A stretch of DNA of 64,000 nucleotides. It comes from Octopus vulgaris (Eukaryota). The notes under the pieces are model-generated. The model worked only from the letters and a program-made list of their open reading frames with translations. It was not told the origin of the DNA and made no database searches. A program made the translations under genes and the position numbers. Of the stretch, positions 5,697-38,486 are shown in pieces. The stretch lies in contig OX597826.1 of NCBI GenBank assembly GCA_951406725.2, forward strand, positions 17,980,001 through 18,044,000, read 5' to 3'. Positions within the stretch are counted from its first letter, which is position 1, and every line of letters begins with the position of its first letter.

Positions 5697-8337
5697 AGAT
5701 CAAAACAGTTTGATTCAAACTCATGGGTACTCTTGGGTTTCAAGCATGATGCTAGCCATCAGCCACTTTGAATGTGAATGACAAAAGTTTTTTGTCATTA
5801 CCATAAGGTAGGCTGCGATTGGTCGAGGAAGGTCACGTGATGTTTTGGTCTGATGTTGGTATATGGGTAACAGTTAGCTGGAAAATACCACATGGTGAAC
5901 AGGAAATTGATCACACGGAGGAGAGGAAATAGACCATGTGGCAGATAGGAAACTGGTCAGGTTGTTGGTGGGCAGGGAGTATATAGTGGCAGCATGTGCA
6001 AGTATATAGTGGGTGTGTAGACACACTCATATGGTTTTGCGTGCATGTGTGTATTGATGCAAGTGTGTGCATCTGTACATAGGCATGCATACATCAGCAC
6101 ACACACATACACTTGGATGAACACACATATACACACACATACACATGCATATGCACACATGCACACACACATGCATATTCATTCATATGTACATATGTAT
6201 ATTCACATGCATGTACACATGCATACCAATATGCATACACATGTGCATTCATGCATGCGAGTATACACATGCAAAACAAGCATTGGGTATTTGTAAGCAT
6301 TTTGAATTGGTAAGAGCTGGGGACTGGAATGCGTTGGGGGTTGGTAAACATTGGGGACTGGTAATTGGCGGTCCTGCTCATGGGGTTGGTTGGTTGGTAG
6401 CAGTGACTTTGGTACCTTGTCTGACGTCTCTATGGGGAGCTTTGATGGGGTGCTTTGACAGGGCTGATATCGCTGGCCTCGTTGGGTTATACATCTTGGA
6501 TACCATCAAGAGACGTATCCATCCACATAGGTCAGCCCTCTATAGGGATGCTGGTCTGGCTATCTCAAGCCCTATGAATGGCCACACCATGGACAGGTTC
6601 AAGAAGGACTTGATAAAAATATTTAAGTAGTTTGGCCTGTCCATAAAGGTTACCACTAACCTGACTACAGTCGATTTCTTCGACATAACCTGTACAGGAA
6701 GCCTAATGGGGATACAGTATTCATCCACAAGAGCTCAAACCATCCCCCTAGTTCCAGGTATTAGTAAATGACTATCTAATTTCTCGGCTAATAGAGAGAT
6801 CTTTTACACTACAAGAATGCTTTGACTAGGAGTGGGCTTACTGAGAAGTTCACGTATGTGGACAGCTTCCCAAACCCCTCCCCTCATCCCAAAAGGATTA
6901 ACAAAACGAAAATTAAATGGTATAACCCCCCCCTTTCAACCTAGAAGTTTTCACCAACATAGCTAGGGGCTTCCTGTCGCTAATTAAGAAACACTTCCCC
7001 ACAGGCCATAAGTACTACTAACTCTTCAACCTCCATGATGTCAAGGTGAACTAGTCCAGCTTAGACAACATCACATCTAACATTGCAGCATCAACAGACG
7101 TAAAAATGTACCTACACCACCCCCAACCCCAACTTGCAACTACTGAAACCCCACCATGTGCCCTCTAGAAGGATCTTGCCTCTCAAAGGCTGTAGTATAG
7201 AGAGCCACCCATACACCATCCGGTGGCATTACTAGGCACTATACGGGTATGATATCTAATGACTTCAAGGGAAGCTACTCCCAGCATATGCACTCATTCA
7301 GATTCAGGGACAAAGCGAACTCTACTTCCCTACCTCATTTTTTCTGGAGACTCTATGATCTCCAAGATGAAATAACCAGCATCAAATGGACTATTGTTGG
7401 CAGAGTGCCACCATATTCACCCGGTGCTCCCAACTGCCAGCTCTGCCTCCGCGACAAACTGCATATCCTCCAACAACCCACAGTATCTATCAACAAGGAA
7501 CACGATTTATCGTATTGCTGTCACCATAGATATGCCCTTCTGGCAAATTTCAGGCCTCTGACTGCCGACAACCCAGATATACCACCTTAGCACCAGCTGC
7601 TACTCTGCGCTGCTTAAACCAAGGTCACTGCTACTAACCAACCCCGTGAGTAGGACTGCCAATTACCAACCCCCAATGCATACCGATCCCCAACACTTAT
7701 TTTGTGCATGTATACTCACCCATGTGCATGCATGAATGCCCATGTACACATGCATGTGTATGTGCATGCACACTAGTATGCATGCACACATGCATACGAA
7801 TATACATATGCACTTATGAATGAATATTCATGTGTGTGTGTGTGAGTATATGTGTATATGTCTGCATGTGTGCATATGTGCATTATGTGTATTCATGTGC
7901 ACATATGTGTGTTCATCCAAGTGTGTGTATGTGCAGACATGTGCGTGTGTACCCATGTACAGATGCACATGCTCACATCAATACACACATGCATGCAAAA
8001 CCATTTGAGCGTGTCTACTCACCCACATACAGAACTATATACTTGCACATGCTGCCCCTTCCTACTCCCCACCAACAACTTGACCAATTTCCTATCTGCC
8101 ATTGACTATTTCCTCTCCTCCATGTGGTCGATTTCCTATTCACCATGCAGTACTTTCCAACTAACTGTTACCCATATATCAACATCAAACCATGACACCA
8201 TGTGACTTTCCTTGACCAATCACAGCTCACCTTACAGTAATAATAAACAACTTTTATCATTCAAATGGTTGATGACTAGCATCACGCTTGAAAATCAAGA
8301 TTACCAACGAATTTGAATCAAACTGTTTTGATCCAGA
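5697..8337 (+). mobile_element. 5'-truncated Penelope-like element (RT C-terminus plus C-terminal GIY-YIG endonuclease, pseudogenised) with inverted pseudo-LTR
   Basis: About 6440-7590 encodes LYRDAGL (YRDD motif), VDFFDIT, IHKSSNHPP, WYNPP, C-N-Y-*-NPTMCPLEGSCL, VVYRA...HYTG (GIY-YIG) and CQLCLRDK, with stops and frameshifts. 5697-6413 is an inverted copy of 7618-8337. The element ends in (TA)n. Confidence 0.9.
8259..8318 (+). ncRNA. Degenerate type I hammerhead ribozyme in the Penelope pseudo-LTR (second copy at about 5713-5773, minus)
   Basis: TGG-TTGATGA-CTAGCATCACGCTT-GAAA-ATCAAGAT-TA-CCA. The inverted copy has CTGATGG, so the two-copy consensus restores CUGAUGA. Confidence 0.6.
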
Positions 8338-8510
8338 TATATATATATATATATATATATATATATATATATATATATATATATATATATATATATATAT
8401 ATATATATATATATACATACATATATATATATATATATATACATACATATACTCCCAGCATATGCACTCATTCAGATTCAGGGACAAAGCGAACTCTACT
8501 TCCCTACCTC

Positions 8511-9030
8511 ATTATATTGAGGGTACTACTATCTGTAGATACCAACACGCTAAGAGGGACCAATGTCAAAACTACTAAAAATAAACAAAATTTTACGAAT
8601 GCAAAACTTCAAAACACATCATTTTAAAAAGAATTCAGTTACATATCACATGTGATTTCGCATAATGCAGAATATGCATTTCATGTTTGTCAGTAACAAA
8701 CTCAAGAAATATATTTCTTGAGTTTGTTGCACTGACGAACATGAAATGCATATTCTGCATTAATTGCGAAATCACATGTGATATGTAACTGAATTCTTTT
8801 TTAAAATGATGTGTTTTGAAGTTTTGCATTCGGTAAAATTTTGTTTATTTTTAGTAGTTTTGACTGCATTGGTCCCTCTTAGCGTGTTGGTATCTACGAA
8901 TAGTAGTACCCTCAATATAATATAAATGAATATTTTCAAAGAGGAAGAATTTACGGATTTTTTCTCTTACGAGGTTTTTCACGCTGACTACTGATAATTT
9001 CTTTTAAAGATTTTATCCTCAATTGTTAAT
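8511..9030. mobile_element. Fold-back non-coding element (family A): about 410-bp spacerless palindrome 8511-8921, centre 8711/8712, between (TA)n tracts
   Basis: Arms are reverse complements with few indels (ctcaagaaata|tatttcttgag); each arm carries a hammerhead motif. Confidence 0.88.
8726..8789 (+). ncRNA. Type I hammerhead ribozyme, intact catalytic core
   Basis: Stem I GTTGCA/TGTAAC; CTGACGA 8732-8738; stem II ACA...TGC (A.C closing mismatch); GAAA 8768-8771; self-complementary stem III TCACATGTGA; AUA triplet, predicted cut after 8783. Confidence 0.85.
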
Positions 9031-10418
9031 ATATATATATATATATATATATATATATATATATATATATACATATATATATATACATACATATATATAT
9101 ATATATATATATATATATATATATATACATCATCATCATTTAACATCCGTTTTCCATGCTAGCATGGGTTGGACGGTTCGACCGGGGTCTGGTAAGCCAT
9201 GGAGGCTGCACCAGGCTCTAGTCTGATTTGGCAGTATAGTGGGTGTTTTTACGTGCTACAAGCACAGAAGCCAGAGCAGGCTGGCAAACGGCCATGATCG
9301 GTTGGTACTTTTATGTGTCACTGACACGGACGCCAGTCAGCCGGCGCTGGCATCTGCCACGTTTGGACAGTGCTTTTTACGAGTCACCAGCACGGGTGTC
9401 TTAATTACAATTTCCTATATATACATATATGTACGATGGACTTCTTTCAGTTACCATCTCCAAAATCCACTCACAAAGCTTTAGTCAGCCTGAAGCTATA
9501 GTAGAAGGTGCCATGCAGTGAGACTGAACCTGGAACCATGTGGTTGGGAAGCAAGCTCTTATCACACACCCACTCATGTTTTATTTTTTAAATTTTTATT
9601 TTATCTGTTTTAGTCATTAAACTGTGGCCATGCTGGTGCACCACTCTGAAGAACCCCCAGCTAAATGAATCAACCTCAATACCATTTTTTTTAAAGATTG
9701 GTACTTATTTTATCAATCTCTTTGCTGCTGAACCACTAAGTCATGGGAATGCAAACAACACTGGCCATCAGGTAGTGGTGAGGGACAAACACAGAGACAC
9801 AAACACACACACATGAGGTAGAGAAGTAGCGTTCTCTCTGTCCCTGAATCTGAATGAGTGCATATGCTGGGAGTAGCTTCCCTTGAAGTCATTAGATATC
9901 ATACCCGTATAGTGCTTAGTAATGTCACCGGATGGTGTATGGGTGGCTCTGTATACTACAGCCCTTAAGAAGCAAGATCCTTCTATTATATATATTATAT
10001 ATATATATAATATATGACAAGCTTCTTTCAGTTTCTGTTTACCAAATCCACTCACAAGGCTTCGGTTGGTCTGATGCTTTAGTGGAAGACATTTGCCCAA
10101 GGTGCCAAGCCATGGGACTGAACCTAAAACCATCTGGTTGGGAAGCAAACTTCTTACCATATAGTTACACCTGTACCTATATTAAGAAAATATCTTTTTA
10201 AAGTCGTTAAGTATTTAAAAGAATTATTCAAAACAGAAAATGTTACAAACCTTCCAGAAAGAAATTTTCATATAGTGTGTATTTTGTTTGTAAGCACTTT
10301 CATTCATGTATTTAAAAAGTTGAACAATATTTACACACAAAATGCACAATAAATGAAAACTTCTTTCCCAAAGGTTTTTGACATTCTGCTTTTTAAATAT
10401 ATATATATATATATATAT

Positions 10419-37477: not shown

Positions 37478-37790
37478 CACCGTGACCACTGTGACAGACC
37501 AGGTTATAAAATGTTGCTACACATCACTGGTCACAATGCGCTTCACATTGTTTTAGCCTTCAAATGATGCCACCCTACTGGCTAAGCGAGCAGGCCAACA
37601 GAAGAACGAGTGAGAGAAAGTTGTGGCGAAAGAGTAGAGCAGGGATCGCCACCAACCCTTGGTGGAGCCTTGTGGAGCTTTAGGTGTTTTCATTCAATAA
37701 ACACTCACAACGCCTGGTCTGGGAATCGAAACCGCGATCCTACAACCATGAGTCCACTGCCCTAACCACTGGGCCATTGCGCCTCCACAC
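37478..37790 (-). mobile_element. tRNA-derived SINE (related copies at about 57745-58060 and 17080-17200)
   Basis: Head GTGGAGGCGCAATGGCCCAGTGGTTAGGG with B-box-like GGTTTCGATTCCC. Confidence 0.8.
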
Positions 37791-37946
37791 TATATATATA
37801 TATATATATATATATGTGTGTGTGTGTGTGTGTGTGTGTGTGTGTATGTATATTCCTATATAAATGAGGATATGATCGTTATTTAAATAACGATCAAATC
37901 AAGTGGCAGCATGGGAAGGAAAAACCTTAGAGGTTATAATTATTAT

Positions 37947-38486
37947 TAAAATTATAAATAAAGGTATCTAAGAGATACCATCATGCTTGAAATAGCAGTC
38001 AAAACCTGACTCTAAAACCACATCATGTATTCAATACAGCATAAAGTGAAAAGACAAATAGATAAATGAACTAGTGAAAAACTGGATAATTCCAGACCCT
38101 GGGTTTCTGACTCTGTATAAAAATACTTTGCCTTTGTCAATGAAATATATCAAGAATTGTACATAATTACACACACACACACACACACACACACACACAC
38201 ACACACACACACACATATATATATATACACACAAAAACATAAGTATTTGTATGTTTGTGTGTATATATATATGTAATTCTTGATATATTTCATTGACAAC
38301 GGCAAAGTATTTTTATACAGAGTCAGAAACCCAGGGTCTGGAATTATCCAGTTTTTCACTAGTTCATTTATCTATTTGTCTTTTCACTTTATGCTGTATT
38401 GAATACATGATGTGGTTTTAGAGTCAGGTTTTGACTGCTATTTCAAGCATGGTGGTATCTCTTAGATACCTTTATTTATAATTTTA
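37947..38486. mobile_element. Fold-back element (family D): 212-bp inverted arms (37947-38158 / 38275-38486) around a CA/TA spacer, with degenerate hammerhead at 38282-38348
   Basis: Arms nearly identical. GATATATTTCA-TTGACAA-CGGC...GTCA-GAAA-CCCAGGG-TC-TGGAATTATC. (TA)n flanks. Confidence 0.85.

What the first reader, a model, noticed from the sequence alone, without database searches (positions are those of the whole stretch)
5713..38348. Six sequence-unrelated (TA)n-associated elements share one hammerhead design with palindromic stem III
Seen: CUGANGA...GAAA-[palindrome]-UH motifs, intact or decayed, at 8259-8318 (ATCAAGAT), 8726-8789 (TCACATGTGA), 10696-10790 (CAATTG), 12251-12369 (CACGTG), 37281-37311 (CCGG) and 38282-38348 (CCCAGGG). 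The flanking sequences look unrelated. Known: palindromic stem III is typical of Penelope hammerheads thought to cleave as dimers. Inference: a diverse population of ribozyme retroelements targets TA microsatellites here. The stem II loops vary from about 4 nt to 42 nt and to more than 80 nt, which standard covariance models could miss.
Basis: partly seen in the sequence, partly recalled or inferred. Interest (0 to 1): 0.75.

Follow-up and report, generated by a model that had tools for sequence, protein, structure and literature searches.

The report
Penelope-like retroelement ends with hammerheads
Four or five of the six flagged motifs look like the small hammerhead RNA motif that Penelope-like jumping genes carry near their ends, sitting in mirror-image insertions beside (TA)n repeats of what is likely an octopus genome; this is a known kind of element, and cutting by these motifs is untested.

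Summary
E1 (5698-8333) is a decayed Hydra-clade Penelope-like element (PLE): RT and endonuclease remnants between inverted pseudo-LTRs. E2, E3, E4, E6 and an unlisted E7 are short head-to-head insertions with a one-sided 76-126 nt tail, and are distant relatives of each other (sense-only similarity, z 2.7-6.9). E3 is a full type I hammerhead whose '42-nt loop' is a 17-bp helix II. E6's core is the published U3-A8 variant rather than decay. E1 and E2 fit with a mismatch at the base of stem II. E5 (A3-U8 core, 2-bp stem II) is doubtful. E4 breaks the core at two positions in both arms and fails. Near-palindromic helix III, (TA)n targeting, inverted 5'-truncated partners and tails are all published for PLEs, including an Octopus Hydra family. 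The scan has already noted the same layout in other genomes. Possibly new: the long tails with a shared motif, and twin GCTC..GAGCACT hairpins in Hydra relatives. Verdict: new members of a known kind; interest 0.22.

The parts
5698..6413 (-). E1 left arm: inverted pseudo-LTR with decayed hammerhead (core at 5762, A9G)
   Evidence: 565 of 675 ungapped columns identical to the right arm
6423..7587 (+). E1 body: 5'-truncated, broken Hydra-clade PLE ORF (RT motifs, CxCX5C linker remnant, GIY-YIG-type endonuclease with CxxC and CxH)
7618..8333 (+). E1 right pseudo-LTR, ends 4 bp before (TA)57; hammerhead 8259-8318, predicted cut after 8303
8450..8513 (+). 64-bp exact copy of E1 endonuclease DNA 7276-7339, lying between the (TA)n tract and E2
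8511..8714 (-). E2 left arm (hammerhead with G8A)
   Evidence: 196 of 199 columns identical to the right arm
8714..9028 (+). E2 right arm: hammerhead 8726-8789 (predicted cut after 8783), then tail 8922-9028 ending at (TA)49
10416..11030 (-). E3 left arm: last 80 nt of the unit, then one whole 545-bp unit (10416-10960) with the intact hammerhead 10696-10790 (predicted cut after 10709) and a tail of about 126 nt
11030..11600 (+). E3 right arm: partial tandem, hammerhead with a 23-nt deletion, ends without tail at (TA)10
   Evidence: 475 of 479 columns identical
11620..12460 (.). E4: head-to-head pair joined at a 10-bp palindrome (12036-12045), partial tandem 12035-12072, 76-nt tail on the left arm, (TA)n on both sides; hammerhead-like remnant 12251-12369 fails the core
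   Evidence: 305 of 337 columns identical
15373..15795 (.).
   Evidence: 213 of 268 columns identical to E3
37210..37398 (+). E5: single (TA)n-flanked segment with a doubtful compact hammerhead 37281-37311 (A3-U8 core)
   Evidence: ends set by the TA tracts only
37850..38486 (.). E6: head-to-head pair around a CA/TA microsatellite centre; U3-A8 hammerheads at 38282-38348 '+' and at the mirror place (core 38140 '-'); tail 37850-37947 on the left arm; (TA)n on the right

Best explanation
These are mirror-image insertions of the ends of Penelope-like retrotransposons (one broken Hydra-clade copy and several likely non-autonomous families), and their hammerhead motifs likely serve to cut tandem precursor RNA rather than to drive integration. 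Inferred mechanism: the element's protein, bound to uncut tandem RNA, nicks both strands of AT-rich or (TA)n DNA and starts reverse transcription inside the RNA at one of two sites. The two cDNAs come from one template and join at their far ends through a short palindrome or microhomology, which leaves two 3' ends pointing outward, one with a tail and one without. Shown here: the anatomy, the ORF remnants, the motifs, the TA flanks and the shared private variants of E3's two arms. Taken from papers: two-strand nicking, two internal start sites, and dispensability of the hammerhead for insertion in vitro. Not shown: cleavage, dimer folding, transcription, and which autonomous element moves E2-E7.
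For: E1's endonuclease region has 3187 relatives at E up to 0.001; full-length ones (658-759 aa) align to window 6423-7557 over RT and endonuclease and carry the RW, DKT-like, CxCX5C, CxxC and CxH marks that define Hydra (PMC8557442 section 11). That paper's supplement lists Hydra-1_Obim from Octopus bimaculoides with (TA)n preference and hammerheads with a base mismatch in stem II and near-palindromic helix III. Of 78 fetched relatives, 64 have such a motif on the ORF strand and 0 on the other by the same descriptor; 28 of 59 distinct motifs have the base mismatch; U3-A8 and G3-C8 cores occur; the pairs covary (92% paired, 0 of 500 shuffles, alignment fitted to the model). Models built from those relatives alone rank E3 first in the window (E 0.012 and 0.0014). 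E3 and E7, independent insertions 80% alike, both have one arm with and one without the tail. Both E3 arms carry letters that 98-99% of family depth lacks (10635/11514; 11332 with mirror 10840). One contig of the run guessed to be RNA differs from E3 at the free position 7 and turns two G.U pairs of helix II into A-U (loose end at 10754, read by eye); another E3 copy abuts (AT)n at 10951. Inverted 5'-truncated partners, tails and junction palindromes are described in PMC8557442 and PMC3846280; two-strand nicking, two internal starts and hammerhead dispensability in PMC11167929.
Against: The covariance models do not score E1, E2, E4 or E5 at all (E up to 5 or 10), and E6 only at E 2.4 in one of two models. 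Only E3 folds better than shuffles; for E1, E2, E5 and E6 the z-scores are -1.5 to +0.5 and the lowest-energy fold is not the hammerhead. No ORF is attached to E2-E7, they have no blastn match to the 78 Hydra loci, and their tail motif is absent from Hydra relatives (0 of 43) and from the paper's supplement, so their parent is unidentified. Their tails (76-126 nt) are longer than the published 30-40 bp. That contig variant also has a stem I change that would mispair unless compensated. No genome was held; family data exist only for E3 and E4, and 110 of 150 variant rows were hidden.
Confidence: 0.85

Rival explanations
1. E2, E3 and E6 are non-LTR retrozymes proper: monomers cut hammerhead to hammerhead, circularised, and reverse-transcribed by rolling circle, which gives the partial tandems.
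For: E3 is a 545-bp non-coding unit in partial tandem in both arms with an intact type I motif in mid-unit; contigs of a run guessed to be RNA cover it; retrozymes are 150-450 bp tandem repeats with type I motifs (PMC7229834) and are proposed to derive from PLE pseudo-LTRs (bioRxiv 2026.07.22.740005).
Against: No locus here holds two motifs in direct tandem, the preprint's criterion for an active retrozyme; inverted pairs and tails are PLE insertion marks. Contigs cannot show circles or transcription. This reading differs from the best one only in the RNA template.
Confidence: 0.3
2. The head-to-head pairs arise by self-priming on an antisense template at junction palindromes rather than by two target-primed cDNAs.
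For: Short palindromes lie at the centres of E2, E4 and E7; PMC3846280 proposes this route; the E4 junction 11649-12042 recurs in contigs of all four runs (6, 3, 4 and 1 contigs).
Against: E3's centre is a plain junction and E6's is a microsatellite; a purified PLE protein extends both nicked strands on sense RNA (PMC11167929).
Confidence: 0.2
3. E4 (and perhaps E5) has no ribozyme: E4 is a PLE-mobilised or DNA-transposon-like repeat whose CACGTG belongs to an internal inverted repeat, and E5 is a chance motif.
For: E4 has A14G and U16.1C in both arms; neither change is reversed among the 40 shown variant rows; the same 10-12-nt word occurs again, inverted, about 225 bp away in each arm; a subfamily seen in 23 contigs of one run has different letters over the 3' stem I strand. 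E5 has 2-3 bp stems and an unfavourable fold.
Against: E4's remnant lies at the same place relative to its ends as the motifs of E2 and E6, and E4 is the closest relative of E6 (z 6.9), so it is probably a dead motif. E5's two core changes are exactly a complementary 3-8 pair.
Confidence: 0.6
4. The long palindromes are assembly fold-back artefacts.
For: Arms of E2, E3, E6 and E7 are 94-99% alike; no laid contig spans the whole stretch.
Against: Arms differ by substitutions and deletions; E1 and E4 arms are only 84% and 90% alike; the one-sided tail recurs in independent copies; the E4 junction is in four independent runs.
Confidence: 0.04

Closest known systems
Hydra clade of Penelope-like elements, including Hydra-1_Obim of Octopus bimaculoides (Craig et al. 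2021, PMC8557442)
   Same: RT then CxCX5C linker then C-terminal endonuclease with CxxC and CxH; (TA)n targets; 3' type I hammerhead with stem II base mismatch and near-palindromic helix III; inverted 5'-truncated partner. By eye, E1's RT remnant closely resembles the Hydra-1_Obim protein printed in the supplement.
   Different: E1's hammerhead and 3' end differ from Hydra-1_Obim's, so it is another family; it has 716-bp inverted pseudo-LTRs. E2-E7 are not shown to be Hydra: no DNA match and a different tail motif.
Hammerheads of metazoan Penelope-like elements (Cervera and De la Pena 2014, PMC4209133)
   Same: Type I topology in the terminal repeats, small palindromic helix III, extra nucleotide after position 9, U3-A8 core covariation, pairs on opposite strands 100-700 bp apart, high variability within one genome.
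   Different: E3 has a 17-bp helix II (50 nt against 10-29 nt in the Hydra relatives); E2 and E6 have helix III long enough for a monomer; E5's A3-U8 core was not in 59 Hydra motifs nor in the passages read.
PLE insertion structure with inverted pLTR, tail and junction palindrome (Arkhipova et al. 2013, PMC3846280; Frangieh et al. 2024, PMC11167929)
   Same: Head-to-head inverted arms, partial tandems, one-sided tail, AT-rich targets.
   Different: Tails here are 76-126 nt instead of 30-40 bp and share a short motif across four families.
Animal non-LTR retrozymes (Cervera and De la Pena 2020, PMC7229834; Li et al. 2026, bioRxiv 2026.07.22.740005)
   Same: Non-coding, AT-rich, few-hundred-base units with a type I hammerhead, in partial tandem, at high copy.
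   Different: No direct tandem with two motifs in this window; circular RNA not shown.

Membership tests
Hydra-clade PLE (E1) | Single ORF with RT followed by a C-terminal GIY-YIG-type endonuclease | tested here: met
   tblastn of five full-length relatives covers 6423-7557 in order, with stops and frameshifts; atlas neighbours carry GIY-YIG
Hydra-clade PLE (E1) | CxCX5C linker in place of CX2-5CxxC | tested here: met
   Window has C-N-Y-stop-N-P-T-M-C (second C decayed); the closest relative P0002 and the full-length relatives have both cysteines
Hydra-clade PLE (E1) | CCHH motif absent; CxxC and CxH around the conserved E and N | tested here: met
   against the definition
Hydra-clade PLE (E1) | N-terminal RWK and DKT motifs | not testable with these tools
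   E1 is 5'-truncated; its relatives have RW and DKT/DKS
Hydra-clade PLE (E1) | Placement inside the Hydra clade on an RT tree | not tested
   Reference clade sequences were seen only in a supplement and were not brought into a tree; comparison by eye only
Hydra-clade PLE (E1) | Hammerhead near the 3' end and insertion into (TA)n | tested here: met
   One core change in each arm, at different positions; 3' end 4 bp from (TA)57
PLE-derived non-autonomous insertion (E2, E3, E4, E6, E7) | Inverted 5'-truncated partner, one-sided tail, partial tandem | tested here: met
   Inverted pair and tail in 5 of 5; partial tandem in E3 and E4
PLE-derived non-autonomous insertion (E2, E3, E4, E6, E7) | Homology to the pseudo-LTR of an autonomous PLE | tested here: inconclusive
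   No match to E1 or to 78 Hydra loci from other animals; own genome not available
Type I hammerhead | Conserved core with a 3-8 base pair, GAAA and UH | tested here: met
   Met for E3 left, E2 right, both E6 arms (U3-A8) and formally E5 (A3-U8); one change each in the E1 arms
Type I hammerhead (E4) | GAAA and U16.1 | tested here: not met
   A14G and U16.1C in both arms
Type I hammerhead | Three stems supported by covariation within the family | tested here: inconclusive
   One E3 variant with compatible helix II changes; one helix III pair differs compatibly between the E1 arms; no family alignment for any of the six
Type I hammerhead | Site-specific self-cleavage, as monomer or dimer | not testable with these tools
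   No raw RNA reads offered; contigs show no ends
Non-LTR retrozyme | At least two consecutive tandem units, each with a complete hammerhead | tested here: not met
   In this window only partial tandems with one motif per arm; other loci not seen
Non-LTR retrozyme | Abundant circular monomer RNA | not testable with these tools

The most novel reading that the evidence does not exclude
The tail is a defined cis module. Four diverged non-coding families (E2, E3/E7, E4, E6) keep a hairpin, a GCTG(G)CCACT(T)G word, a second hairpin and a TA(T/C)CCT end across a 76-126 nt tail, two to three times the published length, and Hydra elements keep two GCTC..GAGCACT hairpins whose positions match their insertion ends. 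These would be the clade-specific RNA signals that place the two internal start sites of PLE reverse transcription and let ribozyme-bearing parasites borrow the enzyme, with E3 as a high-copy carrier of an unusually long helix II and E5 as a natural A3-U8 core.
Probability: 0.3. Interest if true: 0.5.

Novelty: new member of a known kind. Interest (0 to 1): 0.22.

Why it matters
As it stands it adds unnamed families to a described class, and shows that Rfam misses Hydra-type hammerheads even when they are compact (0 hits in 20 loci). If the tail motifs are the signals for internal initiation, they give short, testable cis elements for an open question: how Penelope-like elements choose their RNA start sites and build inverted insertions. 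E3 is also a ready construct for a monomer-versus-dimer cleavage test.

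Tried and rejected
Rfam at gathering score: 0 hits in the window; at E up to 10, only hairpin and microsatellite matches to unrelated families, rejected as chance. Whole-genome search: no genome held. Word-based protein search with the 129-aa endonuclease piece: 37 candidates, none significant; Pfam: 0 families for 3 of 3 window pieces and no relevant family for 7 of 7 proteins. Neptune assignment, my first reading from memory of the cysteine linker, was dropped. The idea that E1, E2 and E6 are simply decayed at stem II or the core was dropped. 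The idea that the window's tail motif is a Hydra terminal motif was rejected (0 of 43 segments; 0 places in the supplement). Expression: no RNA holder listed; one run guessed to be RNA has contigs over E3 and E4, which shows neither transcription nor ends. Summed contig depth over E3 and E4 is mostly 10^4 to 8x10^5 against 67-88 on the flank in one run; this shows high repetition but is no copy number. E7's start 6 nt after the homologous cut site is one case, and E2 and E6 start 17-20 nt before the core, so it is not taken as evidence of cleavage in vivo. One of the 59 motifs (L062, inside the ORF, U3-A8, 30 nt) is probably chance and is left out of the 10-29 nt range; the 78 loci include repeated families. 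Scans of viral and prokaryote collections were not run.

Full report
Setting. The window is AT-rich animal DNA (GC 0.31-0.45) with 72 tandem-repeat rows. Minus-strand exons encode EGF, Sushi and Ephrin_rec_like domains between 55,980 and 15,061, so E5, E6 and E7 lie in introns of one gene; I found no further exon below 15,061 with a simple cysteine-pattern scan, so E1-E4 may be intronic or downstream. That the animal is an octopus is my inference from the repeat style (recalled) and from the likeness of E1 to an Octopus bimaculoides element in a paper's supplement; no tool named it. No genome was held.

Observation. All six strings are at the given places. A strict descriptor finds only E3 (minus strand, core at 10777); relaxing the base of stem II adds E2. 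Against dinucleotide shuffles in 1-kb blocks: strict set 1 versus 0.03 (27 of 888 reach it), intact core with 5-bp stem I 2 versus 0.008 (0 of 888), one mismatch 5 versus 2.2 (56 of 888), loose two-mismatch set 94 versus 72 (0 of 25). So decayed motifs taken singly are close to background. After reading that 3-8 covariation and a mismatch at the base of stem II are natural, I rebuilt the descriptor. It finds a motif on the ORF strand in 64 of 78 outside loci and on the other strand in 0. In the window its compact form gives E1, E2, E5 and both E6 arms and nothing else (5 versus 0.29, 0 of 1191 shuffles), and its stricter long form gives E3 and both E6 arms (3 versus 0.013, 0 of 1191). This tuning was post hoc. 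E4 never passes. Only E3 folds better than shuffles (z -3.7; its helix II alone z -4.0). E3's stem II is a 17-bp helix with a 6-nt loop, not a 42-nt loop. Helix III is a perfect palindrome in E2, E3 and E5, and not in E1 or E6; among 59 outside motifs 15 are perfect, 7 self-complementary with G.U and 37 have a central mismatch.

Self-comparison shows that E1, E2, E3, E4 and E6, and a further element E7 at 15373-15795, are inverted pairs with their 3' ends outward. Arm identity is 84% (E1), 90% (E4), 94-99% (E2, E3, E6, E7). E3 and E4 include partial tandems. In E2, E3, E4, E6 and E7 one arm runs on past the other by 76-126 nt, and in four of these five the extension ends at a TA or TG/TA microsatellite. 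E7 is an 80%-identical relative of E3 that lacks the hammerhead, and it shows the same two end points. In total 7 of 12 outer ends lie within 10 bp of (TA)4 or longer against 1.5% background. E2, E3/E7, E4 and E6 are similar in the sense orientation only (z 2.7-6.9; E3-E4 and E2-E7 are not significant; E1 and E5 match none) and share a short word in the tail.

E1. Between its inverted repeats lie broken frames. Read through with X, the endonuclease part has 3187 relatives; five full-length ones align over RT and endonuclease at 6423-7557. Their motifs match the definition of the Hydra clade. That paper says that canonical hammerheads were readily detected in Hydra and that almost all families insert into (TA)n; its supplement lists an Octopus member and 26 Hydra motif rows with the same design as E1, E2 and E6. 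E1's 3' end differs from Hydra-1_Obim's, so it is a separate family.

Family evidence. Contigs of four runs (three organism labels) were laid on 10300-12560, which covers only E3 and E4. Both are highly repeated. None of the 40 shown variant rows (of 150) falls in E3's left-arm hammerhead, and the shown indels there lie in or next to a helix II internal loop. Both E3 arms share letters that 98-99% of the family depth lacks, which points to one template (or later conversion). One contig shows a different base at position 7 and two G.U to A-U changes in helix II, plus one stem I change of unknown partner (read by eye). For E4, the family restores the CACGTG word, but no shown row restores GAAA or U16.1, the same word recurs inverted near the 5' end of each arm, and a subfamily has other letters over stem I. 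E4 is best read as a PLE-type insertion with a dead or absent ribozyme.

Mechanism. A purified Penelope/Poseidon protein nicks and extends both strands of AT-rich DNA, starts at two internal RNA sites that bracket the tail, and inserts uncut RNA whether or not the hammerhead is active (PMC11167929). That accounts for outward 3' ends, one-sided tails and the survival of whole motifs with 17-20 nt of 5' flank in E2 and E6. Joining at palindromes is described, with antisense self-priming as the authors' proposal (PMC3846280). The ribozyme's likely job is to process tandem precursors (PMC4209133). Helix III duplex energies (-6.4 to -15.8 kcal/mol for E2, E3, E5, E6; -2.5 for E1) allow dimers but do not show them. 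Extending these results to the present families is inference.

What may be new. The tails are longer than the published 30-40 bp and share a motif that is absent from Hydra relatives and from the supplement. Separately, 32 of 43 Hydra segments carry AGCACT within 200 nt after the cut site, mostly as two GCTC..GAGCACT hairpins before the ORF, and by eye many insertions end before or between them (no formal control run). One search for that word with PLE terms found no paper using it. An A3-U8 natural core was not found in searches, in 59 Hydra motifs, or in the sections read, but E5 is weak. Most subscription papers are outside the library, and the preprint's supplements were closed.

Papers seen: PMC4209133 and PMC11167929, parts 1-2 of 4; bioRxiv 2026.07.22.740005, parts 1-2 of 5; PMC8557442, abstract, passages, section 11, supplement part 2 of 59 and search passages; PMC3088659, passages and section 8; PMC3846280, PMC7229834, PMC6155905, PMC6962438 and PMC8969392, passages only. 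Earlier scan notes report the same hairpin-shaped PLE stubs in other genomes; they supplied two paper leads and are not counted as evidence.

Verdict. Real, mostly as described, but a known kind: new families of hammerhead-bearing PLE ends in (TA)n. Four motifs are credible (E3 strongest, then E6, E2, E1), one is doubtful (E5) and one fails (E4). Interest 0.22.

Noticed in passing
L001-L078, 0-200 nt after the hammerhead cut site (e.g. L008:161-330, L026:235-380): Hydra-clade relatives carry two GCTC-(8-20 nt)-GAGCACT hairpins between the hammerhead and the ORF start (AGCACT in 32 of 43 segments); many insertions seem to end before or between them.
   Followed up: partly
window 8450-8513 and 9813-9985: Two local copies of E1's endonuclease DNA (100% and 94% identical, the second inverted), both ending at the position homologous to 7338-7339 and each next to a TA tract; possibly templated insertions.
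   Followed up: no
window 15520-15545: E7's two arms overlap at a central TA inside a 24-bp palindrome, 6 nt after the position homologous to E3's cut site.
   Followed up: partly
window 37040-37143 '-': A strong hairpin followed by the same tail word as in E2/E4/E6, directly beside the (TA)n tract left of E5; it may be the tail of a lost partner arm or another element.
   Followed up: partly
window 11649 / 12042: E4's inversion junction recurs in contigs of all four runs laid (6, 3, 4, 1 contigs), so either this junction is preferred or the composite has itself spread.
   Followed up: no
L005:2602, L055:2400, L068:1938: Natural hammerhead core variants in Hydra relatives: G3-C8 once, U3-A8 twice. 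L062 has a second motif on the opposite strand at 2496-2551.
   Followed up: no
window 15061-55980 '-': Host gene with EGF, four Sushi and Ephrin_rec_like exons; the inverted pairs E6 and E7 in its introns would form long double-stranded hairpins in the pre-mRNA and would bury the ribozyme motif.
   Followed up: no
window 25392-28170 '-', 47413-48258 '-', 61922-62356 '+': Remnants of an LTR retrotransposon (protease, RT, RNase H) and of LINE-type RT frames.
   Followed up: no
window 4880-5123, 20314-20709, 34654-35030, 41298-41692, 59921-60315, 63542-63930 and others: A roughly 400-bp interspersed repeat present more than ten times at 70-80% identity; probably a SINE (recalled, not tested).
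   Followed up: no
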